This document shows positions 13,470 through 62,728 of a stretch of 64,000 nucleotides of DNA, one piece after another. The translations under genes and the position numbers were made by a program. The notes beneath the pieces were generated by a model, which made no database searches, was not told the origin of the DNA, and worked only from the letters and a program-made list of their open reading frames with translations. Numbering within the stretch: the stretch's first letter is position 1; the number at the start of each line of letters is the position of its first letter. The stretch is from Lingula anatina. Its lineage: Eukaryota; Animalia; Brachiopoda. The DNA is taken from assembly GCA_051362555.1 (NCBI GenBank), contig CM120644.1:18250534-18314533 (forward strand), given 5' to 3'.

Positions 13470-14525
13470 ATGTCCTCTAACAATCTGAAAGTTCTGCTCC
13501 TTCTTATGGTCGTTCAGACTATCTGTTCTTCGAAAATGGTAAAGGTAGGTCCAGACACGAATTTGTTATTGTCTTTTGAATATTTTAAGAAGCTAGACTA
13601 CTTTAATTCGGGTGTCTACAAGAATTGTCAACGGCTTCTGTAAACAGCAAAGGGACAACAAAGTGCGGCAGTTAAAGGACAGGGGTTAAATATGTTACAA
13701 AAAAAGACAAAGTAGCCTACATTTTGTAACGCATATAAATGCTACTTCAGGAACCCATCATATAACAGGATAATAGCGCAGGATAAAATTCAAGGAACAA
13801 TTTGATAAGCGCAAACAGCGAGAACCCACGCTAATCACTTGGTCATTGGTGTTTGGCGCAGTGATTTAGTAGTAAGGTCCTGCTATGAAAGCAAACAAAA
13901 TTAGGGTGAACAATAAGCAATGTTTGGCCATTTGCAGTTGTGTCGCGTCCACGTCATGTTTGTTTTATAATATTTTGCAAAATTTTAGAACCCCAAAGGA
14001 AACTTTAGTGAGCACTGGGTTTCCAAGTACAAACAATTCTTTGATATAATGGACATCGATGAAAATGGCATGGTGAATGAAGAGGAATTTGTCGATTCAA
14101 CAACAGAGCGAGCTCAGCAAGTCCTCCCATCTTGGCGAGCCATGGCGGTGAATGGTATATTGTACAGTGCCTTTCACCTGTGGTGGTTAAATGAAAACAC
14201 TATCTATCCAAAATCCTTCACGTTTCAAGAAATGCTTCGGTCTGAAGAGGCGGAAATCCCTATTACAAGAGAAAAGATCGTCAAAAACGCAAAAGATTGG
14301 CTTAACGTGCTTGATCTCGACTGCGATGGCAGATTGATGGTAGATGAGTATGCCAACTTCCTTACTATTTTCCGTAACACTGCTAAGGTTCAAGATATAT
14401 TTGATGTCATTGATTGGAATGAGGATGGTGTGATTGACACCAACGAGTTCATAAACGCTTTCGTGGGCTACTGGGCTGAACAAGAGGCCAGCTCCTCTGA
14501 TGTCCTTTTTGGTACTCGTTATTAA
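13470..14525 (+). CDS. Secreted SCP-like EF-hand protein, subtype A; coding exons 13470-13544 + 13989-14525
   Basis: Exon 1 MSSNNLKVLLLLMVVQTICSSKMVK ends AAG|GTAGGT. Acceptor TTTTAG|AAC at 13989 is in frame (phase 0) with ORF 14049..14525. EF loops DIDENGMVNEEE, DLDCDGRLMVDE, DWNEDGVIDTNE; EF2 degenerate. N-terminal SEHWVSKYKQFF and C-terminal LFG resemble invertebrate SCPs. Confidence 0.9.
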
Positions 14526-15140
14526 GCGTATGATCATAAAATCTTAATTTGGCCATGACCATTTTGATTATAAATTGCATATTAACTTCTGAACTTTTGA
14601 AATGTAAATGTATTTGCTTAGCTGTTGCCTCTCCGCATAAAAAAAACACCATTACTGTATTTGTTGATTCTCCTCGGAACAGTGTGAGACCAAAAAAAAA
14701 AAAAAAAAAAAAAAAAACATACGTACATGCCTTTATCGCTTTTTAACCATTAGCTTTACTGTTTGCTTTGCATATGATGTATATCTTATTTAGAATAACC
14801 ATTAAATCATCCTTTCTGATGCCCATGTCTTGCTCTGTACATTTTGAGGTAATATGTCCTAACTTTCTTGTTCAAAATCAACCGGTGGATTTCTCTTCAC
14901 AATTATAATATGGTATTTACCAAAGTCAAGACAAAATTTTTCATCTTTATTTTATACATTTTAATTCAGGAATATTTTAAGCGCTGTTGAGAGTATACGT
15001 TGGAATGTTTATTTATTATTGAATGTCAGCGTTTCATTGTTGGCATCATAGTTAACTACAAATAAACATTTTATCGATTATAAAAACGCATATTTCGTTT
15101 GTGATTTTAAATGACCAATCTATCTATCTATCTATCTATC

Positions 15141-15245
15141 AGATGGCCTTGTGGTCAGAATGTCCGCCACCGGAACGGGAGGACGTGGGTCCGGGGGCAT
15201 ACCAGTCCTTCATAAACAGCGCTTGCTGTCTTCCCTCTTGCTCAT
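15141..15245 (+). mobile_element. tRNA-derived SINE fragment
   Basis: GATGGCCTTGTGGTCAGAATGTCCGCC...GACGTGGGT..GGGGCATACC head with an A-box-like motif. Related copies at 24136-24215 (-) and 53600-53700 (-). Confidence 0.55.
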
Positions 15246-15654
15246 CTTGTTCTTCTAAAAGTATCTATCTGTCTGTCTATATCAAAAAATATTATCTGCT
15301 TTTGATTATGATTTTCAAAAGTTTGACCTCTGTGTCATAGCCGGTAAAAAATGTAGGTTGATGTTTTCATTTAAAGTTCAAATGTAAATTCCTAGAGGTG
15401 AAAGAGAAAGGGGATATATAACATGTCGAAAGGGGGGCAAGCGTGACTAATTATCTTAAATGCGACAGTAATGCGACAGATTGTATTTAAATAGACAACG
15501 CTCATACAAAACATCAGAAAAGATTGATTGAAAAAACAGCGGGAAGACAGCAGGCGCTGTTTGCGTGCTGTAAAATTTGCAACATATAGGCCTTACGAAA
15601 ATGCAAAAAATGCTTTTGTTAGCGATAGTTAGCTTATATGAAGGGACGTGCTAC

Positions 15655-15891: not shown

Positions 15892-15986
15892 TGCTATATA
15901 AACTTGTATTTCCCACTCAACGAATAATGGATTATAAAGTTTAAGTCTGTTGTTTTAAATATCTTAACAGAATAAAGTTCGTAAGG

Positions 15987-18573
15987 ATGTCCTCCAGCAA
16001 TCTGAGAGTTCTGCTCCTACTTGTGGTTGTTCAAACTCTCTGCTCCTCAAAAATGGTGAAGGTAGAACTCCAAACACGATTTGCTACGGTGTGTTGAGTA
16101 TTAGGAAGCTACAAAGTTAATACTTAATATGGGATTTTTTAAATCATTTGTTAATTTTGAGTGCAGATTATTTTTTGTGGCTTAAATCACCAAAAAGTTA
16201 TGTCACTGAGTGATAAAAATATCCAGGCTTCTGTTGTTGGATAGTTTGGCCAATAATATTAAATCTGATATAAAATATCTCTCAAAAGAAAAGAACACCT
16301 CCAGAAGACCATATCAACAGTTTGATGACAGTATGAACTGTATGCTAACTTATTAAAGAAAACGTTAGACTTCGGACAGTGATATGCTAAACAGACAAAG
16401 AACTCATTACAGTAAATCAAGTAATCATTGGTGGGTATATCCTCCAGCAGCGCCCTCAACCTACATGACAAGCTTTTCAGAGTTTGGATGGGGCTATCAT
16501 TCAACGCAGTGATATTTGCCTGTCGTAGTTCATCACGATTTACCGGCTGATGACTTCTGCCCACATATTATCAGTTGGGTTCATACCTGGGGAGTTTGCT
16601 GAACCCATTGCTTTTGAAGAAAACTAGTGATTCTGCGAGTACGATGTGGGGATGCGTAGTCGTGTTGGTACACAGAGTTGTTCCTGAAGATGGTGCTTTC
16701 TAGAAAACCAACTGGTTCTGGACACCGACATGAAATGCTCCCAAAACAGAGACGCTAACACCGCCTGCTTGCACCCTAGGCAGTACACAATCATCGTTAT
16801 ATGCCTCTCGTACACGTTGGCGGACACGTTTGACCGCCAACCCTTAAAACTCCATATTTGGCCTCATCACTGAAAACAACGTGATGCCAGTGGTTTGGCT
16901 GCAAACTCTCGGGGTCCCAAGCCCATTGCAGACGTCGCTGTGTATGACCTGCTGTTAACAGTGGTTTCCGAATTGGTCTTCCTGCAAAATAACCGGCTTG
17001 TAGTAATCTCTTGTTCACGAGGGATATTGAAGCGGGCGTTTGAATGAAATTCGGTCACTTTCTTCTAAGGACACTGGTTGTCGTTGTACGACCAGCTCGG
17101 CACAGTGTAAGGAGAAGGCAATCCTGTCTCCTTGTTGTGATACGAGGACACCCTGGTAGAGGTCTTGGAGAAGGTGCGCCTGTAGTAGCATTTTTTGGAG
17201 GACTTCACTAACGGTTCCCTGTAAAATGTTAAATTGCCTGGGAATGGCTGCCCGTGTTGGCCATTTTCTCTGAGAGCAAGATTCCCATATTAAGCTGAGT
17301 TGCTTAAACGTCGAAAGATATCTTCTCTAAGCTACCTGTCAAGTTTCAGACCGATCCCTTTGTTGCTTCTCGAAATATCCTCCAAAGATTGACCAAACCC
17401 ATGCGTTTTTATACAAGGGCAGAAATTACCGAAAAGACCACCCCTCACATTTCTGATCGCAGGACATGCAACTGCATGCACCAGTTGTTTCGATTGGTAA
17501 TTAGGTAGCTCGCCTGGCTACACATTAAGTGACACCTCAGTTTCAGATTTAAAATAGTTTGAGAGAAAATAAATATTTTGTAGAAAATTTACTCGCCAAA
17601 AATAATATTCCATATTGAGTATTAACCCTGAAGACTACTTTTAATCGGGTGTCTACAAGAATCGTAAACGGCTACTGTAAGCAGTAAAGGGACAACAAAG
17701 TGCAACAGTTAAAGGGCAGGGGTTAATATATATTATAAGAAACACTTGTACATTTTGTAACGCATAGAAAATTATAAGTGATAATTCATTGTTTTATTTT
17801 ACATAAATCTCATCATTTAATGCGATGAATTAGCACAGGGTAAACTTCAAATGGTAATGGAATTAACTACAATAAACAGCACCAATCACTTGGGTATGGT
17901 GTTTAATGTAATGATTATTCTTATCAATTGCGGCTATAAAAACAGTCGTAAAGAGACAATATAGATAATTGTTTGCCTTACCAGCCGTGTTCAAGTCGTG
18001 TTAATTTTTTAATACCTTTTCGTATTTTAGAACCCAAAAGGAAACTTAAGTGCGCACTGGATTTTCAAGTACAAGCAATTCTTTGATATCATGGACGTTG
18101 ATGAAAATGGAAGGTTGACTGAAGAGGAATGCATCGATTTAACAACAGAGCGAGCTCAGCAAGTTATCCCGTCTTGGAGAGCCATGGCGGTGAATGGTAT
18201 ATCGTCTAGTGCGTATTACTTGTGGTGGTCAAATGAATACAACAACTATTCCAAATCCATCACGTTTGAAGAAATGCTTTGGGCTGACGAAGATGAACTC
18301 ACTAATATAAGCTTAAGAGAAGAGACCGTAAAATTCGCAAACGACTGGCTTGGCGCGTTTGATCTCGATTGCGATAGCAAATTGATGGTAGATGAGTATT
18401 CAAACTTTCTTACTGTTTTCCGTAACACTGCTAAGGCTCAAGATACATTTGATGAGACTGATTGGAATAAGGATGGCGTGATTGATTCCAACGAGTTCAT
18501 AGACGCTTTCGAGGACTACTTTGTTGGTCAAGAGCCCAACCCCTCTGATCTCATTTTCGGCGCTCGTTATTAA
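15987..18573 (+). CDS. Secreted SCP-like EF-hand protein, subtype B; coding exons 15987-16061 + 18031-18573
   Basis: Exon 1 MSSSNLRVLLLLVVVQTLCSSKMVK ends AAG|GTAGAA. Acceptor TTTTAG|AAC at 18031 is in frame with ORF 18091..18573. EF loops DVDENGRLTEEE, DLDCDSKLMVDE, DWNKDGVIDSNE. Confidence 0.88.
16117..17625 (-). mobile_element. Degenerate Tc1-family transposon in the gene B intron
   Basis: Fragments RPIRKPLLT..RRLQWA..WHHVVFSDEAKY and an ANSP-type motif, with frameshifts. Short TIR TTAATACT(T/C)AATATGG at both ends. Absent from the homologous gene A intron. Confidence 0.8.
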
Positions 18574-19560
18574 GTCGGCGATTATAAAGACGTACCCATG
18601 TAATTCAGGGATGGCCTTTTGGTTAGATTTCATTTTACCTTTTTAATTTTTTTATTTTTAAGCGTGCAAAATTTCAAATTCTACTATGCAGTAAATGCCG
18701 ACATATGGATACTTTTTAAAGAGAAACATATCTTGACAATGCCAGGTTTTGACCAGCCCAAAGGGGCACAATCCAATTAAATCATTGTATATTACACAAT
18801 GCAGCAGCGCAACAGACAAAGTAATCAGTTAAATGGTAGCTACACACCTGACTACACACTACTCCATTCACCTATCTTATATGAGATCGAAGTTTTTTAA
18901 AAGAACACATTTTTACAAAGGCATACTTTGAAACTGAAATATTCCATATCAAATGTCAGGTCTGTACAAAAGGGACGTTCCTACTCAACCGACCGAATAG
19001 CCAGACCAGTTCCAATATACCAAGGAGTATCGTGTGGCCATATTGTTTTTATCCTATGTGTTTTCATGTGGTGTCTGCTAACCTAATTGCTTTTGAAGAA
19101 CACCTGTTAATTGATAAAGCAATAGTGAACATCTTAAGTCATGATGGACTAATCGCATGGTTATTTCTTTTACCAAAAAATTGGCGACTAATGGCTCTGA
19201 AGAATTCTTAAATACGAACATTATAGATAGGTGAATAACGCATTTCTACACTTTGCATTTGGCCCCTGTGGAACATATCGAATCGAGGTCGTCCCTGAAC
19301 AGCAATTGTTGTACAAATACATTGCATTTATAAAAATCATGGCGAAATATAACGTTACAATAAATTACTGGAAGTCTACATTAGACAGAGTGGAAAATCA
19401 GCACTATATATTAGTTTTTAAATAACATTGATTGTTTTTTAATTGTCTGTGGCAAGTAAAACGATAAAATAAATGTCTCGTTTTTAATTTTTCTCACAAT
19501 GATATGACTTGTTTTACATTAGATCCAATATACTCTTGCACAATTATATTTTGCTTCCTT

Positions 19561-20111
19561 CAGGCCTACCCAACTACCAGACTCGGCACCTAAGGATCCT
19601 GAATTAACCGGTATATCGGACCACGCTACCCGTTTTCAAGGTGTGTGTCAGATCGCATTTTGGAGTATCATACCCCAGAACAAATTTTGTAGCACGACTG
19701 CGGGCTCATCCACGCTCGGCTGAACAACCTTAAACTGTACTCTTACTTTAGAGTACTCTATTTTATTGTCTCTATGGGGATATATGGGGACTTTACGACA
19801 TTCGGTTTGAATGTTTTAACCACTTTTGATAGAGCTTTTTTGCATTGTATAAGATTAATGTGGCAGTCTAAGGTTCACCCAGGTGGCTTTCAAAATTATG
19901 CACCCGGTTTTAAAATCATATAGCGATTTTACGACAATCGTTTACTATCCAATCAAGGTGACAGCCGAGCATGCCAGGGTTCATCCTGTCAATGTTCTGG
20001 TTGATACTCCGAAATGCGATCTGACACACACATTGAAAACGGGTAGTGTGGTCCGATATACCGGTTAATTCAGGATCCTTAGGTGCCGAGTCTGGTAGTT
20101 GGGTAGGCCTG
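19561..20111. mobile_element. MITE with long (~110+ bp) TIRs, CAGGCCTACCCAACTACCAGAC termini
   Basis: 19561-19670 is the reverse complement of ~20003-20111. TTCCTT on both sides. Empty site in the right arm at ~44835. Confidence 0.85.
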
Positions 20112-25350: not shown

Positions 25351-25354
25351 ATAA

Positions 25355-25399: not shown

Positions 25400-25402
<3 letters not shown>

Positions 25403-32844: not shown

Positions 32845-32919
32845 CTTTACCATCTTCGAAGAGCAGTTATTCTGAACAACCATAAGAAGGAGAAGAACTT
32901 TCAGATTAATTGAGGACAT
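32845..32919 (-). pseudogene. Orphan A-type signal exon (MSSINLKVLLLLMVVQNNCSSKMVK); EF-hand exon deleted
   Basis: 75-nt exon with an intact donor. Downstream intron homology continues to ~32245 and stops just before the expected acceptor. Confidence 0.7.
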
Positions 32920-35237: not shown

Positions 35238-36097
35238 TCAATCTCGTGAGCCAAAAATATAAGCAGCGGAGTTGGCAGCTTGGTCGAAGGAAAAATGATA
35301 TACCCCATACGTGAACTCCTTAGCATCAATGACGTTATCACCATCCCTGTCAATGACATGGAAAACGGCCCTTTTATTCGCCGTGCTGCGATATATATCA
35401 AGGAATTTAGAGTACTCACTAAGCGTTAAGTCCTCGCTGCAGTCGAGGTCAACAATATGGAAAAAATCCATAGCCCATTCGAAGACTGCATGTATATCAC
35501 TGGTAGAGCCGGAAACCTTTTCAATAGACTGAACCCAATCCTCAAATGCAATAGACGTCTTAAAGTCGGTGTATTCATTCGACCACCAGGTCTTATAGGC
35601 CATGGTCATTAAACCATAGACTGCCTTAACTCTCCAGGATGGCAGTGCAGCTCGCTCTGTCGACAAATCAATGTACTCCTCCTTTGTTACATTGCCGTCT
35701 TTATTGACGTCACAGATGTCAAATAATTTTTTTAATTTCTTGAACCTATACGGAGTAAAATCTTTGTTATCCTCTTCAACCTGGATAAAAAAATTACATT
35801 TTAAATTGAAGAGATCACTAAAATTCCTGCTACTAAAAGGCTACAATAAAGCTTTTATTAAATTGATTAGAATGACAAAATATTTGTCATATAATTTTGA
35901 TTGCAACATCATGATACATTGTAGCCTCTCTGTGTACTGAACTACACGATAACCTCAACCGTCATAAATTTCCAGCACATCATTTAAGTCGGTTAAGAAA
36001 GAAAATTATAAGACTAAAGAATTACCTTCCCTCCATATGACGAATCAAAGGTTAGAACAAATGAAAGCAGCAACAGTCCAAATTTGATGGAAAACAT
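35238..36097 (-). CDS. Secreted SCP-like EF-hand protein, subtype C1; coding exons 36097-36026 + 35780-35238
   Basis: Exon MFSIKFGLLLLSFVLTFDSSYGGK ends AAG|GTAATT. Acceptor ATCCAG|GTT is in frame: VEEDNKDFTPYRFKKLKKLFDICDVNKDGNVTKEEYIDLSTERA... EF loops DVNKDGNVTKEE, DLDCSEDLTLSE, DRDGDNVIDAKE. Confidence 0.88.
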
Positions 36098-36430: not shown

Positions 36431-38232
36431 CAGTCCCCTCATAAAACTGACAAATCAGAACCGACAAAGACTAGGAGTAAGACCGACTAAGAAAAAACCT
36501 GTCAGAATAATGGTATTGTCTCTTGAAGAGCGTAACTGCAGCAAGGGGAGTCGTTTCTCTTACTAAGCAGTTACTAATCAATCTTTACACTATGAGGTTA
36601 ATTTGGGAAATAAAGATACCCAAAACACGTATGCAATGGTTATTTTATCTGATAATTCAAGTAAGTAGCAAGAAACATATTTTTGAAAACAGGTCCATAT
36701 TAAAGGACAATTCTGTTGATTATGTTTTTAGTGTAAGTGTACCAAAAGCATCCACAATAATTCAAACAACCTTGGTTGTGTCAGAGCTTCAAGCCGTCTA
36801 AAATTCCGTGCAACATGTTTCTACCGCTAGAAATGTGCAGCAATAAAGACATGGTAATATTTGTGGCCATTCCTATATAAATTAACAACTCGTGATGCAA
36901 TTGCACATAAATATACAATCTAACTTCAACTACCCATCACCTCTTCATTTGGACACAGACTTTCAGTAATAGTACGTTTTCTGAAAATAGTGTTTCGTGC
37001 CATATGCTGATACAATACAATTTCACATAAATATGCAATCCAAGGTCAACTACCCATCGTTTTCCTTATTTAGACACAGACATAATTTTCTTCAAAATTA
37101 GCCGAATAAAGCACATAAAAGCCATCATTCTGTTTTGTCTACCACTAAACTGTACCAATGAATTGTTTCAACTCAAAGTAGAAATATATGCAGTATTAGT
37201 ACTTTTTCTGAAAATCATGTTTCGTACCATATGCTGATCCTTTACCTGTAAAGCTTATGCTCCGAACACGCCGTTGGTTTTTGATAAAATCCTTTATTGT
37301 CCTTTGCAGAGCGATGTTTTAATCTCATCACGAGTGACGCAGAGTATTTCTTCATTCTTTCCGTTATTGCGCATGCCCATTTTCCCAATAATTTTATTGG
37401 ATAAAATTATGACTACGAAATGAGTGTCTGCATATGTTGGTAAAGACAGATAAAATGAATATATATTGTTCCTCTAGCTCTTATATTTCTTGTATTGCTT
37501 ACCGTTGTTTTTAGCGCATTTGGTTTAACTCCGGTGAACTGCTATACATATTTATATATGTACACTATGCATTTCTTCTGATTCAATCTTCATAAAATTA
37601 CGATTATATAAAGTGTAATCTACCCCACTGCGACTTTAATTCATAACATTAATTCTGGGACTTTTTTATGTATGTTAACATTAACGTAGTAGATACATGT
37701 ATGTTTGTTATGCAGGCTTTCAACGTTATGTTTTTCTTCATTTATTTTATACGCCATAATTCTCATCTGTTTGTAATGGAAACAAAGGCAAAGCTTTGTA
37801 AGGCTAGGAAATATTTTTTTAGCCGGTATGCTAAAGATGAGTTTGGCTACATGACTTCCATTTCGTTGGCTCGACACATTTCTTTTAATGTGATAGATGC
37901 TTTATAGTTGGCGTATTCATTTGACCACTACAGTTTGAAAACAGCGGACAATACATATAATCATACGTATAGTGTATAATTAGGTACTAAAACCCCAAAT
38001 GCTGCCAGTCGCTGCCTTTGAGTCTGTATTCTACAGCCATAATATAACATAAACAGAGCAATTTCTGTGTCGCACCTAAAACATTCAAGCAACGCAGCAC
38101 TGTGATCTCTCGTGGGTGAGAAAAGAACTCTGAAAGCAACTGCAATAGATTATCTAACTTTACATTGTGCTTTACGAATCTGGTTTGGATTCATATTAAA
38201 ACTGGATAACAAATGTTTTGTATGTACCTCTT

Positions 38233-38428
38233 TATGTCCGACAGGCCATATATGTCCTACGACCAGAGAAGGCCAGATATGTCCGACAAAAAAGAGCCAG
38301 ATGTGTCCGACAGGCCAGATATGTACAACACAACCGGTTCTTTTTTGTCGGACATATCTGGCCTGTCGGACACATCTGGCTCTTTTTTTCGGACATATCT
38401 GGCCTGTCGGACATATCGGGTTGTCACA
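38233..38428. repeat. Foldback array of TGTCCGACAGGCCAGATA units (MITE end)
   Basis: Units in direct orientation 38235-38320 and inverted 38345-38415; source of several spurious overlapping ORFs. Confidence 0.8.
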
Positions 38429-39987
38429 TTCAGAAGATTTGAAATAGTAACCAATTTGCCCACAATATGACTAAGTGCACGTAGTATGTAGACTCCATAA
38501 CATCAATGACGTCGTTATTTACCACCAAGGTCAATAACACTGAAAGTGACTCAAACGTCGGCATATATCGAGGCAATTGAAATATTCATTTAGTGTTAAC
38601 ATTTCACTGCACCCATTCTCAACAACATGGAAAAGTTGCTTGCGTCACACCATGATATGAATCCAGTCTTCTTATACATCACAAATGTAAGGATACGGCC
38701 TAGGTTTAAAGCAGTGTTTTTTAGAGAAAAAGTATAGTCATCTGTAGACTGTTTCAGTGTCACTTGCTGAGTAAAAGACATTTTATAAGGTTTTTATAAA
38801 TACAGTATGTGCTGCATATTACGAAAACCGTGGCACACTGTACAGGTAGTTTCACTGTAAAGCACCTTGAGATTGGTGTTACATGTGGAATTACTTGATC
38901 TGCAGCAACAAAATTCAACGCATTACTGAAATGTATGATAATTCCTGTGTATTGTAATCCACTCATCATCGACTGTCACGTTTTCAAGATCTTATTTTCA
39001 TTTCCCTCAATGTAAAACTATATGATTCATACAGACTGCCACGTTAAAAAAGTATTTATACAGGCTGCCAAGTTAAAAAGAAAGCTCAAGGCTGCTACCA
39101 TTAAAATTCAATTAAAATGCTGGTGCTTTTTTAATTAATATGTAATTATTATGTGGTTCCTATCACTTAAACGACAAGGCAATGTATCGATATAATATGC
39201 ACTACATTTTTTCAGCTCATTGTTCCTTCTTATATATAGTGAATTAACTATGTCATATACTACAACAGCATCTTAATTGCATATTTACGCCAATCTATTC
39301 TCACCCCGCATACGCTGCTGGAAATATATAGAGCAGGAAGGAGGGGAGCAGTATATTGTTCGTGATATGGTACTGTTATCACTGCACAGGCAATAAACGA
39401 GAGGCCCCAAACATCCGAATTCATCGGAGTACCTCTGAACACAGGATCAACAAGGTATGAAGCGTGATTTTCAGCAAAAAGAACATGATTGAAAGGAATT
39501 GACTCTGCATTTGAATGACAAGCTGATACTTTTTTACTGCGAGCCATGGTGTTTTGCTACAGGTTTTATATGAAAGCGATTTTTGATAAAGTTTAGTTTA
39601 GTTTATTTCACCGTAACATTTGCATCCACTTGTGTGGATGAAAATGACAATATGAATACAATTTTTGTGAATATGTTATTAAACAATCACAATGAGAAAG
39701 AATATTTACTTATTTACTAAAAAAGTTTCTATTACTACTATTACTACGATTACTCAATTGCCGATGAGTGCAGCACTGTCTTGTAGATCCCTCCTAGCAA
39801 AAGCGGAGGAGAGAAACTGAGCTAGTAAAGACACTGTTCTGTTTTACAACGAAGAAAATGGTGGATGTGCTGTGAGTTTCATTGCAGTGTTTCCCTCCCA
39901 TTTCGAAGATGTCTTTTTTTTACATGGAATCTTGAGGAAAATTTGTACTCAACCCTGTGGGTTCAGACATTCCCACATTCAAAGGTT

Positions 39988-43100: not shown

Positions 43101-43651
43101 ATCTTTCATCCTTTTTGTCCTATCGCCGGGATGTTCTGTGGATATTGGGACCTTTACAAACACTGGACATTGACGTCACGTGGCCAGATGGGTGGCGTTG
43201 GTGGCCGTTGCCGTACGGTGGCGCTGCGCTGCGGAGAATAATCGATATTCTGCCTGGAGAATGGAGGGACCACTTGGCTCTCGTGAAAAATTGGACACTA
43301 TCAGGAAAACGATTGATTTCTAGGTATAACGCAGATACTGTATTCATTCCAAATAACCAGTACAAAACACGTTTTATTGAAGTTTTAAAATGGTTGATGG
43401 GACCGAACATGCCACGATTATTTGCTGAAATCGCTACCCCATTGCTAGTTGACCTTATAACCACCGAGAAGCCGGACCGACCCGATGTCATTCAATTAAA
43501 AAACAATCATCCCCGTGCTGGTCTCGATACGGCACTTAAGGCGCGGTCGTGCAATTTACTTCATCCTTTAAAGTTGTCCAATGACAGGAATAGGCTAATT
43601 TGGCTGTCCATGTTTAAGAGTGTGGAAAGGATTTTACAGACGCCTCCATAG
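40147..43651 (+). CDS. STELLO-like (DUF288) putative glycosyltransferase, paralog; coding exons 40147-40169 + 41581-43651
   Basis: Micro-exon MRRTMLAR (AG|GTAATT), acceptor TTCTAG|G at 41581, in frame with YAIKAVGLVAFLGLLAYLTIYW and ORF 41606..43651. Same motifs as the minus-strand copy (YEDD instead of YDDD). Confidence 0.85.
40263..40746. mobile_element. MITE, PIF/Harbinger-like termini, in the STL' intron
   Basis: GCCCCCGTTTTACAAAGA ... CTTTTTGAAACGGGGGC; empty site at ~23825. Confidence 0.6.
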
Positions 43652-50937: not shown

Positions 50938-50942
50938 CCGGC

Positions 50943-52852
50943 TTAATAACGAGCGCCGAAAATGAGATCAGAGGCGCTGGGCTCTTGACCAACAAAGTAG
51001 TCCTCGAAAGCGTCTATGAACTCGTTGGTATCAATCACACCATCCTTATTCCAATCAGTGGCATCAAATATATATTGAGCCTTAGCAGTGTTACGGAAAA
51101 CAGTAAGGAAGTTGTAATACTCATCTACCATCAATTTGCTATCGCAATCGAGATCAAACGCGCCAAACCAATCGTATGCAAATTTTACTGTCTCTTCTCT
51201 TAAGCTTATATTAGTGAGTTCATCTTCGTCAGCCCAAAGCATTTCTTCAAATGTGATGGATTTGGAATAGTTGTTGTATTCATTTGACCACCACAAGTAA
51301 TACGCACTAGACGATATACCATTCACCGCCATGGCTCTCCAAGACGGGAGAACTTGCTGAGCTCGCTCTGTTGTTAAATCGATGCATTCCTCTTCAGTCA
51401 ACCTTCCATTTTCATCAACGTCCATGATATCAAAGAATTGTTTGTACTTGAAAATCCAGTGCGCACTGAAGTTTCCTTTGGGGTTCTAGAATACGAAAAG
51501 GTATTATAAAATTAACACGATTTGAACACGGCTGGTAAGGCATAACATTATCTATATTGTCTCTTTACGACTGTGTTTATAGCCGCAGTTGATAAAAATA
51601 ATCATTACGTTAAACACCATACCCAAGTGATTGGCGCTGTTTATTGCAGTTAATTCCATTACCATTTGAAGTTTACCCTGCGCTAATTCATCGTATTAAA
51701 TGATGAGATCTATTTAAGATAAAACAATGAATTGTCAGTTATTATTTTCTATGCGTTACAAATGTACAAGTGTTTCTTATAATATATTTAACCCCTGCCC
51801 TTTAACTGTCGCACTTTGTTGTCCCTTTACTGTTTACAGTAGCCGTTTACGATTCTTGTAGACACCTGATTTAAAGTAGTCTTCAGGGTTAATACTTAAT
51901 ATGGAATATTGTTTTTGGCGAGTAAATTTTCTACAAAATATTTATTTTCTCTCAAACTATTTAAATCCGAAACTGACGTGTCACTTAATGTGTAGCCAGG
52001 CGAGCTACCTAATTACCACTCGAAACAACTCGTGCATGCAGTTCAATGTCCTGCGATCAGAAATGGGAGGGGTGGTCTTCTCTGGAATTTCTGCCCTTGT
52101 ATAAAAACGCATGGGTTTGGTCAATCTTTGGAGGATATTTCGAGCAGCAACAAAGAGATCGGTCTGAAACTTGACAGGTAGCTTAGAGAAGACATCTTTC
52201 GACGTCTAAGCAACTCAGCTTACTATGGGAATCTTGCTCTCAGAGAAAATGGCCAACACGGTCAGCCATTGACAGGCAATTTAACATTTATCAGGGAACC
52301 GTTAGTGAAGACTAGGGTGCAAGCAGGTGGTGGTAGGCTCTCTGTTTGGGGAGCATTTCATTTCGGTGCCCAGAACCAGTTGGTTTTCTAGAAAGCAACC
52401 TACACAGAGACATTCTACAGCAAACAATGCTTCACTTTGTAAGCGCCATCTTCAGGAACAACTCTGTGTACCAACACGACTACGCATCCCCACATCGTAC
52501 TCGCAGAATTTCTTCAAAAGCAATGGGTTCAGCAAACTCCCCAGATATGAACTCAACTGAAAATATGTGGGCAGAAGTCATCAGCCGGTAAATCGTGATG
52601 AACTACGACAGGCAAATTTCACTGCGTGGAATGATATCCCCATCCAAACTCTGAAAAGCTTGTCACAGGGTATGCCATGTAGGGTGAGGGCGCTGCATAA
52701 AAAATCCCATATTAAGTATTAACTTTGTAGCTTCCTAATACTCAACACACCGTAGCAAATCGTGTTTGGAGCTCTACCTTCACCATTTTTGAGGAACAGA
52801 GAGTTTGAACAACCATTAGTAGGAGCAGAACTCTCAGATTGCTGGAGGACAT
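50943..52852 (-). CDS. Secreted SCP-like EF-hand protein, subtype B'; coding exons 52852-52778 + 51485-50943
   Basis: Exon MSSSNLRVLLLLMVVQTLCSSKMVK, donor GTAGAG, acceptor TTCTAG|AAC, in frame with ORF 50943..51425; paralog of gene B. Confidence 0.88.
51889..52722 (+). mobile_element. Internally deleted copy of the intronic Tc1 element
   Basis: Same TIRs and insertion site as 16117-17625; FRNNSVYQHDYASPHRT and ANSPDMNSTENMWAEV motifs. Confidence 0.8.
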
Positions 52853-54348: not shown

Positions 54349-55360
54349 TTAATAACGAGTACCAAAAAGGACATCAGAGGAGCTGGCCTCTTGTTCAGCC
54401 CAGTAGCCCACGAAAGCGTCTATGAACTCGTTGGTATCAATCACACCATCCTCATTCCAATCAATGACATCAAATATTTCTTGAACCTTAGCGGTGTTAC
54501 GGAAAATAGTAAGGAAGTTGGCATACTCATCTACCATCAATTTGCCATCGCAGTCGAGATCAAGCACGTTAAGCCAATCTTTTGCGTTTATGTCGATCTC
54601 TTCTCTTGTAATAGGGATTTCCGCCTCTTCAGACCGAAGCATTTCTTGAAACGTGAAGGATTTTGGATAGATAGTGTTTTCATTTAACCACCACAGGTGA
54701 AAGGCACTGTACAATATACCATTCACCGCCATGGCTCGCCAGGATGGGAGAACTTGCTGAGCTCGCTCTGTTGTTGAATCGACGAATTCATCTTCATTCA
54801 CCTTGCCATTTCCATCAACGTCCATGATATCAAAGAATTCTTTGTACTTGGAAACCCAGTGCACACTAAAGTTTCCTTTGGGGTTCTAAAATTTAACAAA
54901 ATACTAACATGACGTAGACGCGACACAACTACAAATGGCCAAACTTTGCTTATTGTTCACCCTAATTTTTTTGTTTGTTATAGCAGGACCTTACCACTTA
55001 ATCACTGCGCCAAACACAAATGACCAACTGCTTAGCGTGATTGCTCGCTGTTTGCGCTTTTCAAATTGTCCTTTGAATTTCAACCTGCCATATTATCCTG
55101 TTATATGATGGGTTCCTGAAGTATCATTTATATGCGTCACAAAATGTACTTTGTGTTTCTTATAACATGTTTAACCCCTGTCCTTTAACTGTCGTACTTT
55201 GTAGTCCCTTTGCTGTTTACAGTAGCCGTTATTCTAGCTTCCTAAGACATTCAAAAGACAATAACCATTTAGTGTCTGTACCTACCTTTACCATATTCGA
55301 ACAGCAGATAGTCTGAACGACCTTAAGAAGGAGCATAACTTTCAGATTGTTTGAGGACAT
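54349..55360 (-). CDS. Secreted SCP-like EF-hand protein, subtype A'; coding exons 55360-55286 + 54885-54349
   Basis: Exon MSSNNLKVMLLLKVVQTICCSNMVK, donor GTAGGT, acceptor TTTTAG|AAC. The 537-nt second exon has the same length as in gene A. EF loops DVDGNGKVNEDE, DLDCDGKLMVDE, DWNEDGVIDTNE. Confidence 0.87.
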
Positions 55361-55437
55361 TCTTATTTGAACTCTGTATTGTTAAGATTTCTAAAAGAAA
55401 AGTAATAAACAACTTAAACTATACTTAACAATATTAA

Positions 55438-55751
55438 AGGGATAATAACTGTTCGTTTTGGCCAAAAAATGTTCCTGGAGTAAACAACAATTTTCCCATA
55501 CTTACCAATGGCAAATGAATCCATTTTTACATTCAAAGCTAGTCCCTGTTTTTTTTTCAAAAAAAATTCTTAAGAGATTATAGCTGAGTACAGCCATTAA
55601 TGGAGGTCACGTAATCTGAAGGCAAGCTCAGATATCGGAAATAGCTATAATTGCCGTTTTTGTGGTAAAACAGAATATATTATATTTCTGTGAGTTGCTC
55701 ACAAAGTTTTTATTGTGAAATATAGATATCATACGAAGAGTTATTATCCCT
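55438..55751. mobile_element. Kolobok-like MITE upstream of the A' signal exon
   Basis: TTAA|AGGGATAATAACTGTTCGT ... ACGAAGAGTTATTATCCCT|TTGA; absent at the homologous sites 13400 and 32995. Confidence 0.65.
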
Positions 55752-56661
55752 TTGATGGAGTGTGTAATACAAATTTATATCACACCTTTCATATAAGAAA
55801 TGATTTTTGTTTCACTATAGCTAAATTTAAAATCTGTAATTAACAGTAAACAATGTCTGTATTTTGGTAGGCCTACATATGTATATGTTTACAGCACACA
55901 AGCAGTACAACATCATAAGGTATGTATCATAAACGCTTCGGAGTTCGTCGGTCAACTGAAATTCCAATGTTCGTGAACACTGGATCCTAAAGCTGTCGAA
56001 ATGACGAAAGTTGTTGACATCTAAGATGCAGACCATACCCTTCAATATGTATTTCTATTTAGCTTTACTTACCAGATGTCTGTTGTTTCTCCTAGAACCT
56101 AGTCCTATGTAATGTTTTGTTTCAGTGAACGTGGTATATTTTGAAACAATCGTTTCGCAATATTGTCTTGATGAACATTCGGGGTGAAAATTATCAGTCA
56201 CGAAGATCCCCTATTTGACATGTTACCAATCCCTTGACGCCTCCATTTTAAAAATCATACATTTGTATCACTGGAGGTAAACATCAAACTACATTTAATA
56301 CGGGCTATGAGACAAATTAGGTCATCTTGTTGTCAAACATTTGAAAATCGTTAAAGCAGATTGTCTCAGATAGATAGATAGATAGATGAATAGATAGATG
56401 AATAGACGGACAGACAGACATAAGCACAGACACACAGGCAGCCAGACACTAGCAGATGAATCATTTAATGATTTGCTTTAACTGTTTTTATAACCATGCT
56501 TAATTGTTAATACCACAGTATAAGTGATTTACGTGGTTTTCTTACTGTCAGTGTCCTAAAGCAAATTCGACATATTGGGCTGGCTTGGGGCTCTATCCAG
56601 TTTCAAGCACACCATTTCTAACATCTCGGTTTAAAGGAAAATAATAAGACTAAAGAATTAC

Positions 56662-56733
56662 CTTCACTCCTCATGAAAAATCAAAGGTTAGAACAACTGC
56701 AAGCAGCAACAGTTCATATTTTAATGGAAACAT
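56662..56733 (-). pseudogene. C-type signal exon pseudogene with an in-frame TGA; EF exon deleted
   Basis: MFPLKYELLLLAVVLTFDFS*GVK, homologous to 62657-62728. Intron homology ends ~56600. Confidence 0.75.
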
Positions 56734-58986
56734 TCTTGTTGAATGTGGGCCACAAGCGAATCCGGAATTTAAATAACACTCCTGTATACTGTATAGTCTT
56801 CTGTATACTATATTCAAATTGTATATAAATATGTTTTATTTTTCCAAATTCATTGTTATCCATTTCTAGAAGCTTTGTGTTTGTAAAATTGCCATAAATA
56901 AACATCTACGAAAAATTGTCTCTAAGCTAATCAATGCTACTTCACACAGATTACATGCAGAGACGTGATTTAGTAGCAAGCTACCTTGGCCCCTAACAGG
57001 GCCTAAAGATCACCCAATGTAAACTATATTTAAAACATAAGGGTGTAAATCACTCTCTGATTTAATAGTCCACTGGTACAGCTGACAAATCTGAACCGAC
57101 AGACTGGGAGTGAGACCGACTAAGAAAAAACCTGTCAAAAAGATGGAATTGTTTCTTGAATTGCGTAACTGCAGCAAGGGGAGCTACTGGCCGTTTCTCT
57201 GACTAGGCAGTTACTAATCATTCTTCACCCTAAAAGGTTAATTTAGAAAAAGAAACCCAGATAACGTATGCAATGGTTATTTTATTACTTAAAACAGCCA
57301 TGTACGTTTGTAATGCTTTACGTAAGGTTCCAATTTAGGAATTGAGGTCTCGTAATAGACACTGAATAATCTGTAAGAAGCTAGCAAGACATCTTGGTTT
57401 TCTTTGATAATTCAAAAATGTAGTAAGAAAAATATTTTTGAACGCAGATCCATATTAAAAGACAATTATGTTGATTACCGTATGCTGTAATTATAATATA
57501 CTGTACCAAAAGAATCCACAATAATTAATAAAACATGGTTGTCTCAGAGCTGCAAGCCGTCTAAAATTCTGTGCTACATGTTTCTACCGCTAGAAATGTG
57601 CAGCAATAAAAACATGGAAATATTCACATTTATGGCTATTCCTATATAATTTACTACTCGTGATACAATTTCATATAAATATACAATCTAAGTGCTACTA
57701 ACCATCACTTCATTTGGACACAGACTTGCAGTAATAGTACGTTTTCTAAAAAATAGTGTTTCGTACCATATGCTGATACCATACAATTTCATATAAATAT
57801 GCAATCCAAGGTTAACTACCCATCGTTTTCCTTATTTAGAATAAAGCACATAAAAACCATCAAACTGCTTTGACTACCAGTAAATCTGAAAATCATGTTT
57901 TGTAACCATGCTGATCCTTTACCTGTTAAGCTTATGCTCCGAACGCGCCGGGTGGTATCTGGTAAAAGCCTTTACTATTTCTGGTAAAAGCGATGCTTAA
58001 TTCTCATCACGAGTGAAGCAGAGTATTTCTTTATCCTTTCCGTTATTACGCATGCCCATTTTCCCAATAATTTTATTGGATAAAATCATAAATACGAAAT
58101 GAGTGTCTACGTATGTAGGTAAAGACAGACAAAAAAGTGCAGATATTTAATGTCCCTCTCTTACTTTTTGTATTTCTTCCCGTTGCTTTCAGCGCATTTG
58201 GTTTAACTAAGGTTAACTGCTATATTTATACTGTATATGTACACTATGTATTTCTGCTGATTCAATCTTTATTATATTACGATTACTTCAGGTGTAATCT
58301 ACCCCATTGCCACTTTTAATTCTTATCATTAATTCTGGGACGGGTTTTTATATGTATGTTAACATTAACGTAGCTGATAAGTTTGTCATGCGGGCTTCCA
58401 ACGATATCTTTTTGCTCTATTTATTTTATACGCCATAATACTCATGTGTTTGTAAAGGGTAAAGGACAAAGCTTTGTAAGACTAAAAAATAAAATTGTTT
58501 TTTAGCCGGTATACGTAACATGAGTTTAGCTAAATGACTTTCATTTCGTTGGTTCGAAGCTTTTCTTTAAATGTGATAGATGTTTTATAGTTGGTGTATT
58601 CATTTGACCACCACAGCTTGAAAACAGCGGACAGTACATTTAATTATACGTATGTATAGTACATAATTAGGTAATAAAATCCGAAATGCCGCCAGTCTCT
58701 GCCTTTGAGTCTGTATTCTAGCGCAATAATATAAAATAATATAATATAATATAATATAAAATAGTGCAATTCCTTTGTCGAACCTAAAACATTCAAACAA
58801 CGCAGTACTATATGGTCTCGAGATCTCCTGAGTGAGAAAACAGCGCTGTAAACAACTTCAATGGGCAATCTATACGTCATGCAGTCAGCCACCCTGGCAG
58901 CGTTTGATCCCAGGCATTGTTATTGTGGTGTGGCAGGAGTGCACGTCCTAGTAACGCAGTCCTAGGGCATACATTACTAGGATTAA

Positions 58987-60020
58987 CCCTCAAGTGACCG
59001 AGTGGGGTCATTTACGACCCCAGCCATATGATTTAATGTGCCATCTCTTTATTTTTTATTCGAATTTTCTTTCCTTGCATGAGTTTGTCAGTCTACTAAT
59101 CCTACACACTTTTACAGTTTTTTGTAGGGATCAACCAATTAGTGTGGCGTATACATCAAAAACTCTTGTGGGGTCATTTATGACCCCAAAGAGAAGCATT
59201 GGTTTTTACATATTAGTTTTTAAATTTTATTCAAATGTGTTGCCCAAGCAACACTGACAGGAAAATGTCACATGCATGTGCTTCATGCAACCAGCCAGTG
59301 TGCCTAAAACATAGGCACAAATAAGTGGTTTGAGAAGATTGTGCTTGAAGTGTTACTAATAGTACATCGCTGAATCTAATTTCAGTAGCTTTGTTGGAAC
59401 TTGTTCTCATAACTGGGTCTCTCATTTTGACGGTTACAATTTTCGGGTATTTCTGAAATCTAAATAATTCTGTCGATATCATATTATACATATATTAACA
59501 AATTGTTTCTGTGGATTTTGTTTTATACACAGCTGTGGTAGTAACATACATGTAGGTTGATTGAATGTGTTCTGAGTAGTATGACTTCCTTACCAGCATT
59601 AGTGTATTCCCTACTCAGCAAGTCAGCTAATTATTCTTATTGAAGTTAGCAGGATGCTATCTCAACATAAATCAAAATATTTTTACTCAAAGTAATTTTG
59701 TAATGTACTTTTTTCATTTAGTGTGGCAAATAAAAAGAGAAATATTTCTGCAAGTGGAAACTGACAATGACTGTCTAAATACCGGTGTAATGTTGTTCTT
59801 AAAATCTGTGCTTGGTTATTTCATGCAATAAAAGTATTATTACCAAATACTTATTACATTAGATTATTATAAAATACTTGTCTTAAATCCTGGGAGTAGT
59901 ATGGGTGTGATAAAGCCTCAACAGCCTTTTATAATAAGGATCCCTGTACAGAGCACAATGGGGTCATAGATGACCCCACTTGGTCATTTCAGTCAGTAAA
60001 ATAGCTTGGTCTCTTGAGGG
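58987..60020 (+). mobile_element. Non-autonomous piggyBac-derived element, copy 2 (1034 bp)
   Basis: TTAA at 58983-58986 and 60021-60024; near-identical to 2885-3918 with different flanks. Confidence 0.85.
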
Positions 60021-61854
60021 TTAAATGTCCGTAGGACGAAGGCTCCCAAGTAATGCAAGTCCTACGTGTAGTATTACAGATACACCCCGGTTACGGCCAC
60101 GCTGTAATACCTAGAACCCCAACTGTTCATAATTATAGTGCTGTTTTTAGCGAGAGTGGCCGGCGAGCGTAGCCGTTTGGAGCCTTGCAGTTCCCTGTCG
60201 GGAATTCCCTGTCATATATTGCCTCCATAATATTCCACCTGAACCTGCCTTTTGTTCCCACATGTGGCGGCACGCTGCGTCTTCGCATGTCCGTTTGTAG
60301 GAAAGTCGCATTTTAAGAGACGATGTTGCTTGCTTACTAGCACTACGTATTCAATTACTGAATTTGCTTTTTTTAATTTCACACACATAGAGGTAAACTT
60401 TTCTCAATGATTACCTTTTTATTCACCAACGTTTGACTGCGGTTTCTCTCTTTTATTATTGTATGCAACTGATCTATTAATTGTAATTGTACAGTACATG
60501 TAACTACACTTTTGTCCTAACTCAGTGGTTAGGAATAGGATGCTTGGACAAAAAAAACTTGCATTCAACTCAATTAGGCCTAGGTTGTGATGCTGCTATT
60601 AAGGTGTTAATCCCATCCGAGGAAACACCTATACTGAACCCTCTACCAGAAGCCCCCTAGCTGAAACAATTTCTTTTTAATCGTCAAACGATTAGTGATT
60701 TCAATGAACGTCATTGATCGAAAGCCTATGACAAAAACCGAGCCGTCTGCAATTTTGTTTTTTAAAGCGTATGTGTATTAATCATGATCTATTTTGTTAT
60801 GTTCTTTTTTTTAATGAGAGTGGTGAAGTTTAATACCATCATTTCGCAGTATTGTCGGGATGAACATCATTAGTCACACGTCTCCCCTATTTGACATGTT
60901 ACCAATCCCCTGACACCTCCATTTTTCAAAGCATACATTTGTGCCACTGGATGTAAACATCATACTCCATTTAATATGGTCTATAAGACAAAATAGGACA
61001 TCCTGTTGTCAAACATTTGAAATTCGTTAAATCAAAATGTCTCTTTTGTGATAGATAGATAGATAGATAGATAGATGAACAGACAAACAGAAATTTGGTA
61101 CATTAGATTTTGACTGGTTATGCCTTTTTCCTGTGTGGTTTGCAAGTAAATATTTTCTATCATGATTTTTCTTCTTATCTACAGGACAGTTGCACGCAAA
61201 ACAAATTTTTTCGAATACTTTCATGGATATTTTGAAAGGCCACAACAGGCCGATGGGGACGATCTTTTGAAGCAGATGGATTAATTATATAAGAGACATA
61301 CTAGTTACGCCAGTAAAAGATAGATAGATAGATAGATTAGTGTAGACACTTTGAGCGAAAATACTCGATCAGTTTACATGTGATTTCTTTATTTGTTCCA
61401 TGCTTATAATAAACACTCAACGTAAGAAATTCAGCAAATTAGCAAACTTATGTCATATTCATTAGTTTACAATTTTTACTCTCTTTTTGCGTTTTCAAGA
61501 GACTCAATCGCAATGTGAAAAACACAACGATAAAAATGTCTCGACGTTAAAATTAGGATACATACATCCTCCTTTGCTCTCACCAGTACTTATAAACTAA
61601 AATATTTTTTAATTAAAATAAATAGTTCAAAGATAAAAGAATGGAATCCATTTATTCAAATATCCAGTACACTAAATATGAGTCGAAGCAATTCAAATGC
61701 TTGAAGCATTTACTTGCAAAATTCAAATTGAATGAAAAATGATACACTTCTAAAGGGGTTAAGTTTTTTCATTAAAATTGCGACAGACATGAATAAAGCC
61801 ATCCCTAAACCAAAGTTAAATGGAAATCCATTGGCTTGTTTTGTCGTCAAATTT

Positions 61855-62728
61855 TTAATCTCGAGAGCCAAAAATATATGCAGCGGATTTGGCTGCTTGA
61901 TCATAAGTATAATCTTTTACTGCATAGGTGAACTCCTTAGCATCAATGACGTTATCACCATCGCTGTCAATGGCGCTGAAAATAACTTTATTATCCGCCG
62001 TGTTGCGAAATATATCAAGAAATTTAGAGTACTCATTTAGCGTTAACTCCTCGCTGCAGTCAAGGTCAACAATATGGAAAACATCCAGGGCCCATTCGAC
62101 TACTAGATCGCTTGTAAAGCCGACAACATTTTCTTCAGACTTAACCCAGTCCTCAAATACAATAGACGTCTTATAGTTAGTGTATTCATTCGACCACCAT
62201 GTTTGAAAGCCCATGGTCATAGCACCATAGACTGCCTTAGCTCTCCAGGATGGCAGTGCAGCACGCTCCGTCGACAAATCGATGTACTCTTCCTTCGTCA
62301 CGTTACCGTCTTCATTAACGTCAAAGATGTCAAAGAATTTTTTGTATTTCTTAAGACAATACGGAGTAAAATCTTTGTTGTTACCCTGTGCCACCTGGAT
62401 AAAAAAATGTTTATTTCATACTGAAGTGATCTCTAAAAATTAATGTTACTAAAAGGCTACATAAAAGCTAAATTGATTTGAATCAGAAACAATTCGTTAT
62501 ATAATTTTGATTACACCATTATGCTAGCCTCTCTGTGTATTGAACTGCATCATAACCTCAGCTGTCATTATAGGCTTTTGATATTTAAGAAGGCTCTCTT
62601 TCGAGCACATCATTTTAAGTCGGTTTTGAAAGAAAATTATAAGACTAAAGAATTACCTTCACTCCATATGACGAATCAAAGGTTAGAACAATTGCAAGCA
62701 GCAACAGTCCAAATTTGATGGAAAACAT
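61855..62728 (-). CDS. Secreted SCP-like EF-hand protein, subtype C2; coding exons 62728-62657 + 62394-61855
   Basis: Exon MFSIKFGLLLLAIVLTFDSSYGVK, donor GTAATT, acceptor ATCCAG|GTG, in frame with ORF 61855..62394. EF loops DVNEDGNVTKEE, DLDCSEELTLNE, DSDGDNVIDAKE. Confidence 0.9.

What the first reader, a model, noticed from the sequence alone, without database searches (positions are those of the whole stretch)
13470..62728. Expanded family of secreted SCP/aequorin-fold EF-hand proteins with hidden signal-peptide exons
Seen: all six EF-hand ORFs begin at a phase-0 splice acceptor, and each has a 72-75-nt upstream exon encoding Met, a Lys/Arg-containing n-region and a hydrophobic core. The C-termini (TRY, ARY, SRD) lack KDEL/HDEL, and N-glycosylation sequons are present (NFS, NLS, NYS, NIS, NVT). 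Known: SCPs, calexcitin, aequorin/obelin and Renilla coelenterazine-binding protein share this 4-EF fold with one degenerate loop and are cytosolic. Secretory-pathway EF-hand proteins of the CREC family have a different architecture. Inference: this is a lineage-specific extracellular Ca2+-binding family (mucus, adhesive, biomineral matrix, toxin or ligand carrier) that would be mis-annotated as ordinary SCP if exon 1 is missed.
Basis: partly seen in the sequence, partly recalled or inferred. Interest (0 to 1): 0.85.

Follow-up and report, generated by a model that had tools for sequence, protein, structure and literature searches.

The report
Secreted aequorin-fold protein family in Lingula
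In the lamp shell Lingula, six clustered genes for jellyfish-aequorin-like calcium-binding proteins, a kind that normally stays inside cells, each carry a front exon for a predicted export signal; they belong to a family of about twenty genes that likely releases paired proteins, possibly to carry or trap small molecules outside the cell.

Summary
Six intact EF-hand exons start at phase-0 AG acceptors, each with a 72-75-nt upstream exon encoding a signal-peptide-like leader. All named close relatives are from the brachiopod Lingula anatina. RefSeq models a 98%-identical copy of gene F with this exact splice. RNA reads of relatives join a non-coding exon to the leader exon (8 and 3 reads) and, thinly, the leader to the EF exon (2 and 4 reads). 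Of 23 RefSeq family records, 13 begin with such a leader; the five A/B-type models start at an internal Met and lose it. The model (pLDDT 91) has the SCP/photoprotein fold but not obelin's His-Tyr residues. A homodimer is predicted (score 0.71, best control 0.01) on the family's own signature motif. Corrections: sequons are at chance level, the leader exon is the second exon, and the family is absent from a Lingula shell-proteome list. Best guess: secreted, calcium-loaded, dimeric carriers of small hydrophobic molecules; secretion is predicted (no SignalP or protein data) and no ligand is known. No paper describing the family was found in 9 searches. New variant of a known kind.

The parts
12990..13090 (+). 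Gene A non-coding first exon (3' end at GTAAGT donor; 5' end unknown, start shown is the edge of the conserved stretch)
   Evidence: Conserved copies; 3 reads of a relative join it to 13439/13440; donor and acceptor read
13440..13544 (+). Gene A leader exon; coding from ATG 13470, predicted signal peptide; second in-frame Met 9 nt before the donor
   Evidence: 2 reads of a relative join 13544 to the EF exon with 7 replaced letters
13989..14525 (+). Gene A EF-hand exon, 178 codons + stop; SCP/photoprotein fold
15987..16061 (+). Gene B leader coding exon; the upstream AG acceptor seen in D is changed to AA here
   Evidence: no junction reads listed
18031..18573 (+). Gene B EF-hand exon, 180 codons + stop
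36026..36097 (-). Gene C leader coding exon
35238..35780 (-). Gene C EF-hand exon, 180 codons + stop
   Evidence: 96% to XP_013386495.1
52778..52852 (-). Gene D leader coding exon
50943..51485 (-). Gene D EF-hand exon, 180 codons + stop
   Evidence: low read depth from relatives
56073..56180 (-). Gene E non-coding first exon (3' end 56073; 5' end unknown)
   Evidence: 8 reads join 56073 to 55390 across a GT-AG intron of 682 nt
55286..55390 (-). Gene E leader exon, ATG 55360; has Lys inside the hydrophobic core, whereas all reads laid there show Met
   Evidence: (31/31, 35/35, 31/31 reads at 55323)
54349..54885 (-). Gene E EF-hand exon, 178 codons + stop
62657..62728 (-). Gene F leader coding exon, identical in protein to the first 24 residues of RefSeq XP_013390120.1
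   Evidence: 4 reads of a relative splice from this donor in frame
61855..62394 (-). Gene F EF-hand exon, 179 codons + stop
   Evidence: 98% to XP_013390120.1
4875..4949 (-). Orphan intact leader exon, no EF exon downstream in the window
32845..32919 (-). Orphan intact leader exon with its own non-coding exon copy at 33307-33438, no EF exon downstream on this strand
56662..56733 (-). Orphan C/F-type leader exon with an in-frame stop
37853..38638 (-). Decayed EF-hand exon remnant in two pieces
58536..58640 (-). Decayed EF-hand exon remnant

Best explanation
These are six intact copies in a duplicating gene cluster of a Lingula family of SCP/aequorin-fold calcium-binding proteins whose spliced leader exon is predicted to send them out of the cell, where they likely act as calcium-loaded paired carriers or traps for small hydrophobic molecules. 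Shown: gene layout (non-coding exon for A and E, leader exon, one EF-hand exon), about twenty family members, three EF loops kept and the second lost, obelin's His175 and Tyr190 not kept. Predicted: signal peptide cleavage and secretion (about 0.85), fold (pLDDT 91), homodimer on the family motif P-S-W-R-A-x-A-V-x-G (about 0.6). Inferred: in seawater-like calcium the loops would stay filled and hold the fold shut rather than sense calcium; the inner pocket that holds coelenterazine, okadaic acid or juvenile hormone diol in relatives of this fold would bind a ligand, and copies would differ in what they bind.
For: Leader kept in 13 of 23 RefSeq records up to about 45% core identity apart, inside 2 fused models, and in all six window genes. 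Leader exon under purifying selection between A/E and B/D types (dN/dS 0.08-0.28 in 4 of 4 such pairs, 25 codons only). RNA shows the first ATG lies in the spliced message. Nearest solved folds: juvenile hormone diol kinase Z 18.0 (rmsd 2.6, 169 aligned), Nereis SCP 17.9 (2.9, 167), Renilla coelenterazine-binding protein 17.0 (3.0, 171), calexcitin 16.1, okadaic acid binding protein 14.2; PMC5754374 (passage) notes several proteins of this fold bind small molecules. Positions matching obelin's 20 pocket residues (PMC10095345 passage; mapped by hand) vary more among paralogues than 34 other core positions (1.46 vs 1.10 bits, permutation p 0.06; 0.085 with all 26 rows). EF-exon dN/dS between A/E and B/D types is 0.54-0.75. 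Homodimer of gene A: score 0.71, best of 3 controls 0.01; mark reached by 21 of 30 solved microbial homodimers and 0 of 23 monomers, 17 of 29 eukaryote pairs (animals 7 of 16), 0 of 30 eukaryote single chains; runs agree in at least 97% of contacts, pLDDT at least 83. 6 of 14 family-specific near-invariant residues lie in that 22-residue interface (Fisher p 0.003).
Against: No ligand, protein, tissue or SignalP evidence. The pocket-variation test is not significant and rests on a hand mapping at about 20% identity; several mapped positions are polar. The closest single relative by sequence and Foldseek is Nereis SCP, a plain calcium binder. No dN/dS value exceeds 1. The dimer pass may be from memory of solved relatives: only 1 of 7 eukaryote pairs without an older relative reached the mark; only one paralogue was folded. 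Five RefSeq models start at a second Met in strong context. No read spans a leader-to-EF junction of a window copy letter for letter; reads are mostly 82-95% alike.
Confidence: 0.4

Rival explanations
1. Secreted calcium shuttles or buffers in mantle, extrapallial or coelomic fluid that hand calcium to phosphate for the apatite shell without being built into it.
For: Acidic (pI 4.1-4.8) with three EF loops. Pearl oyster Pf-SCP releases calcium to carbonate and lies in mantle cells (PMC12542302, passages); it is a structural neighbour, Z 15.7. An unchecked scan note reports a secreted SCP in a clam (e1-9860327).
Against: 0 of 22 family accessions checked in the 2026 shell-proteome supplement, whose two EF-hand-pair proteins are CHP1 and MACF1; no SCP/aequorin/obelin entry found in the 2015 genome supplement. 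A calcium shuttle does not need twenty copies with varied cores. Shell lists do not test fluids.
Confidence: 0.25
2. Secretory-granule or mucus calcium-store proteins that condense and release mucus or adhesive from gland cells.
For: Leader without an ER retention tail; expression seen in 3 of 3 runs of one study and in 0 of 4 runs of two others, as for a gland product; predicted dimer could cross-bridge.
Against: Read depth is low (mean about 5-30 per bin with relatives pooled) for a bulk secretion; no repeats or low-complexity parts; tissues of the runs are unknown; three of the four negative runs were laid at a stricter likeness.
Confidence: 0.15
3. Mostly cytosolic SCP-like buffers: ribosomes skip the first ATG and start at the Met of MVK, or the leaders are inefficient.
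For: Second ATG in strong context (A at -3, G at +4) in 3 of 4 A/B-type window genes, first ATG has T at +4; 5 of 5 A/B-type RefSeq models start there; gene E has Lys in its hydrophobic core.
Against: C/F-type and 11 other RefSeq models have the leader and no Met at that place; first ATG has A at -3; leader codons are constrained. Could hold as a second, cytosolic isoform of the A/B type only.
Confidence: 0.12
4. Secreted photoproteins or luciferin carriers, as the RefSeq names 'obelin-like', 'aequorin-2-like' and 'mitrocomin-like' suggest.
For: Obelin and aequorin are the best sequence hits of the family profile (E 2e-11); Renilla coelenterazine-binding protein is a near fold.
Against: His175 is replaced by Phe or Val and Tyr190 by Phe in 6 of 6 window proteins, His22 by Tyr or Leu. 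Photoprotein-like genes also occur in non-luminous animals (PMC3570280, passages). Lingula is not known to be luminous (recalled).
Confidence: 0.03

Closest known systems
Sarcoplasmic calcium-binding protein of Nereis diversicolor (PDB 2scp/1q80) and Pf-SCP of Pinctada fucata (9l5m; PMC12542302)
   Same: Same compact eight-helix fold (Z 17.9, rmsd 2.9, 167 aligned; Z 15.7), loops 1, 3, 4 kept as in Nereis-type SCP, C-terminal F/W-G cap
   Different: About 21% identity; leader peptide; family-specific S-W-R-A-x-A-V-x-G motif and invariant Cys in loop 3; own clade apart from Nereis-type P0170; large tandem expansion
Small-molecule binders of the same fold: Renilla coelenterazine-binding protein (2hps), sponge okadaic acid binding protein OABP2.1 (4wri), insect juvenile hormone diol kinase (7pjd)
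   Same: Fold matches Z 17.0, 14.2, 18.0 over 169-174 residues
   Different: 15% identity; these are intracellular as far as I recall; no ligand known here
Calcium-regulated photoproteins obelin, aequorin, clytin, mitrocomin
   Same: Best sequence hits of the family profile over 165 positions; Z 13-16
   Different: His175, Tyr190 and His22 not kept in the six window proteins; leader present
RefSeq predicted Lingula anatina proteins XP_013390120.1 (obelin-like), XP_013407389.2, XP_013390114-117 and 17 more
   Same: Same family; F is 98% identical with the same splice
   Different: Automatic names only, split over five labels; 8 of 23 lack the leader; 2 fuse neighbouring genes
Other secreted EF-hand proteins of invertebrates (Orpin, bioRxiv 2020.05.22.110411, abstract seen; abalone Hdh-SMP5, PMC10741955, listing seen)
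   Same: Signal peptide plus EF-hands in marine invertebrates
   Different: Hdh-SMP5 is 134 aa by its listing; neither was aligned here, and neither abstract or listing calls them SCP/photoprotein-fold

Membership tests
SCP/calexcitin/photoprotein fold group | Compact four-EF-hand, eight-helix domain of about 175-190 aa with C-terminal cap | tested here: met
   Model pLDDT 91, pTM 0.87; Z 13-18 to SCP, CBP, calexcitin, photoproteins over 152-174 residues
SCP/calexcitin/photoprotein fold group | EF loops 1, 3, 4 with D/N-x-D/N-x-D/N...E pattern, loop 2 degenerate | tested here: met
   Three loops found in 6 of 6, none at site 2; loop 3 departs from consensus in B, C, D, F (Ser/Glu at positions 5-6)
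Sarcoplasmic calcium-binding proteins proper | Soluble cytosolic protein without signal peptide | tested here: not met
   Leader exon spliced in frame; location itself not measured
Sarcoplasmic calcium-binding proteins proper | Groups with Nereis-type SCP in a tree | tested here: inconclusive
   Family forms its own clade with P0029 (97/90 and 94/94); deeper forks are open; named SCP and photoprotein sequences could not be included
Sarcoplasmic calcium-binding proteins proper | Binds calcium with high affinity | not testable with these tools
   Loop sequence only
Hydromedusan calcium-regulated photoproteins | His175-Trp179-Tyr190 and His22 holding the peroxy-coelenterazine | tested here: not met
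   His175 absent in 6 of 6, Tyr190 is Phe in 6 of 6, Trp179 kept in 2 of 6; mapping by HMM alignment
CREC family (calumenin, reticulocalbin, Cab45) | Signal peptide, six to seven EF-hands, about 300-360 aa, often HDEL/HEEF tail (recalled) | tested here: not met
   About 203 aa, three intact loops, tails TRY/ARY/SRD
Lingula shell matrix proteins | Detected in shell proteome | tested here: not met
   0 of 22 accessions checked, of 23, in PMC13425148 supplement, positive control found
Secreted proteins | Cleavable signal peptide, no retention or membrane segment | tested here: inconclusive
   n-region, 8-11-residue hydrophobic core and small residues before the junction by a home-made score; SignalP not available; no protein data

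The most novel reading that the evidence does not exclude
Lingula has turned the aequorin/SCP fold into a secreted, dimeric, fast-diversifying family of small-molecule scavengers, a brachiopod counterpart of lipocalins or odorant-binding proteins, that traps algal toxins or other lipophilic compounds in mucus or body fluid; leader-bearing relatives of unnamed origin suggest an older, unrecognised secreted branch of the fold.
Probability: 0.3. Interest if true: 0.75.

Novelty: new variant of a known kind. Interest (0 to 1): 0.52.

Why it matters
The aequorin/SCP fold is treated as intracellular. A secreted, expanded, probably dimeric branch would widen what the fold does, give ready candidates for Lingula's extracellular calcium and small-molecule chemistry, and offer naturally secreted scaffolds related to calcium-reporter photoproteins. 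It also corrects RefSeq, which scatters one family over five names and cuts the leader from a third of the records. The limit: function is untested and most leaders already stand in database models.

Tried and rejected
No whole genome was held, so the family could not be counted in this assembly. No RNA holder was listed by index; raw-read runs with the same species label were laid instead. First fold on 19 rows failed (pLDDT 50) and was replaced. Sequons as evidence: rejected. Bacterial origin: Streptomyces-type proteins were weak hits (E 1e-5) and top Atlas structure rows, but they do not group with the family in three trees; rejected for lack of support. Orphan leader spliced to the STELLO-like gene: rejected, phases differ and that gene has its own membrane segment. 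Cys112-Cys112 disulfide: Cys112 is in the predicted interface but is not among the 25 listed pairs; left open. The first tree kept leader columns and was rebuilt without them on 28 and 23 of 48 rows; P0090, P0126, P0124, P0150, P0110 were left out of the last as long branches. Supplement search with XP_ prefixes was not trusted and was repeated with digits. The taxa of P0028, P0029, P0077, P0090 could not be read. Paper searches listed no paper on this family; subscription journals are not searched; bioRxiv supplements, figures and possibly cut tables were not seen and may hold expression data.
Full report
Observation. Six stop-free EF-hand exons lie at 13989-14525 (+, A), 18031-18573 (+, B), 35780-35238 (-, C), 51485-50943 (-, D), 54885-54349 (-, E) and 62394-61855 (-, F). 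Each follows a pyrimidine-rich AG in phase 0, and each has a 72- or 75-nt coding exon upstream that reads Met, one basic residue and a hydrophobic run and ends AAG|GTA. Of 224 ATG-to-GT open frames of 20-30 codons in the window, 15 passed a signal-like filter, and all 15 are these exons or orphan copies. The sequons are there but at chance level, 10 seen against 8.4 expected.

Organism and family. All 4 hits for A and all 7 for F in a search of 5.8 billion proteins are Lingula anatina RefSeq models; a profile search added nine more clusters before a drop from E 1e-66 to 1e-5. With cluster members this is 23 records on 12 scaffolds told apart by length, named obelin-like, aequorin-2-like, mitrocomin-like, calmodulin-like, SCP-like or uncharacterised; some may be alleles. 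13 of 23 begin with a signal-like leader (in P0021 after 15 extra residues), 2 are fused tandem models that hold one, and 8 lack it: five A/B-type models start at the Met nine bases before the donor, one is partial and two have other starts. XP_013390120.1 is 98% identical to F and joins the same leader at the same place.

RNA. Seven runs were laid on two stretches. Runs X7, X8 and X9 (one study) cover the EF exons and the leader exon at low depth with reads mostly 82-95% alike, so they come from alleles or paralogues. X5, laid at the same likeness, has no depth on the E and F EF exons; X1, X2 and X4, laid at 92%, have none on the A exon and next to none on B. Joints: 8 reads join 56073 to 55390 over a GT-AG intron and 3 join the matching exon to 13439/13440, which shows a non-coding first exon and places the first ATG inside the message; 2 reads join 13544 to the EF exon with seven replaced letters, in frame, and 4 splice from the F donor into a slightly shorter EF exon, in frame. 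All reads over codon 13 of E's leader show Met where E has Lys, so the expressed relatives keep an unbroken hydrophobic core. No read matches a window copy's leader-to-EF joint exactly; C was not tested.

Cluster. The window is a patchwork of tandem and inverted duplications: A-B mirrors E-D, C pairs with F, and two STELLO-like glycosyltransferase genes are mirrored between them. It also holds three whole orphan leader exons (one with a stop), a partial one, four orphan copies of the non-coding exon and two decayed EF exons: birth and death of copies. EF-exon dN/dS is 0.27-0.41 within the three recent pairs and 0.54-0.75 between A/E and B/D; none exceeds 1.

Structure. Loops 1, 3 and 4 are kept and loop 2 is lost in 6 of 6; loop 3 carries an invariant Cys and is less canonical in B, C, D and F. 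An AlphaFold2 model of A on 48 rows has pLDDT 91. Its nearest solved folds are juvenile hormone diol kinase (Z 18.0), Nereis SCP (17.9), Renilla coelenterazine-binding protein (17.0), apo-aequorin (16.2), calexcitin (16.1), Pf-SCP (15.7) and OABP2.1 (14.2); Foldseek ranks Nereis SCP first. Against obelin's pocket residues (PMC10095345, abstract and passages), His175 and Tyr190 are lost in all six, so these are not standard photoproteins despite their names. The 20 pocket-equivalent positions split into five invariant and several highly variable ones; on average they vary more than 34 other core positions, but only at p 0.06-0.085.

Dimer. Two copies of A scored 0.71 against a best control of 0.01; the mark was reached by 21 of 30 microbial homodimers and 0 of 23 monomers, by 17 of 29 eukaryote pairs (animals 7 of 16; 1 of 7 without an older solved relative) and 0 of 30 eukaryote single chains; runs agree in at least 97% of contacts, pLDDT at least 83. 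This supports binding and does not show it, and it may be recalled from solved relatives. The interface centres on residues 47-60, the motif that marks this family: 6 of the 14 residues that are near-invariant in the family but rare in 21 distant relatives lie in the 22-residue interface (p 0.003; related rows are not independent). That agreement is the most specific new clue.

Reach. A search of 1.84 billion representatives found P0029, a 210-residue leader-bearing member with the motif and the Cys, and two more distant leader-like proteins, P0077 and P0090. In trees without leader columns P0029 joins the family (94/94, 97/90) and P0077 lies next to it with moderate support (87/92, 94/91). 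Their organisms are unnamed, so 'lineage-specific' is open. An unchecked scan note describes a secreted SCP in a clam (e1-9860327); I did not test it.

Function. Shown: gene layout, family size, loop pattern, loss of photoprotein residues. Predicted: secretion, fold, dimer. Inferred: outside the cell, millimolar calcium would keep the loops filled (general knowledge), so a sensor role is unlikely; several relatives of this fold bind small molecules (PMC5754374, passage), and many diverging copies suit a binder repertoire. I put this at 0.4, a calcium shuttle for the shell like Pf-SCP (PMC12542302, passages) at 0.25, a mucus or granule store at 0.15, a mostly cytosolic product at 0.12 and a photoprotein at 0.03. 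Against a shell-matrix role, none of 22 accessions checked occurs in the supplement of the 2026 shell proteome (PMC13425148; abstract, section 8, passages and supplement searches), and the 2015 genome paper (PMC4595640; passages, supplement part 6 of 24 and term searches) lists EF-hand domains as abundant but not this family among its 20 most expanded. The held supplements of PMC13121700 gave no hit (term search only). PMC3570280 (passages) and PMC12907440 (passages) were used for background only.

Verdict. A real and apparently undescribed secreted branch of a known fold, found in no paper in nine searches, though most leaders already stand in database models and no function is tested. New variant of a known kind; interest 0.52.

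Noticed in passing
window 21313-23380 (-) and 41580-43648 (+): Two 88%-identical single-large-exon genes of about 690 codons with an N-terminal membrane segment and weak STELLO glycosyltransferase match (E 3e-4, 1e-3), mirrored in the inverted duplication; runs X1 and X2 show reads of a relative on the expected strand.
   Followed up: partly
window 25951-27543 (+): Frameshifted LINE-type reverse transcriptase fragment (RVT_1, E 4e-14).
   Followed up: no
window 55431-55753 and 19560-20111: Short interspersed repeats with very high RNA depth and inverted ends; the first lies inside gene E's first intron.
   Followed up: no
window 7748-8638 and 9728-10199: Tandem arrays of 109-nt and 122-nt units.
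   Followed up: no
window 2881-3922 and 58983-60024: A 1042-nt element duplicated at 98% identity with RNA depth in 4 of 4 runs; likely a young mobile element.
   Followed up: no
window 15950-15975: Gene B has AA where D has the AG acceptor before the leader exon, and no donor like A's was found for the B/D first exon, so B and D may start differently.
   Followed up: partly
P0014 (XP_013404058.1), P0026 (XP_013386927.1): RefSeq models that fuse two and three tandem family genes, with signal-like segments inside.
   Followed up: no
P0036, P0063, P0033: Unnamed proteins made of two to four tandem SCP-like domains.
   Followed up: no
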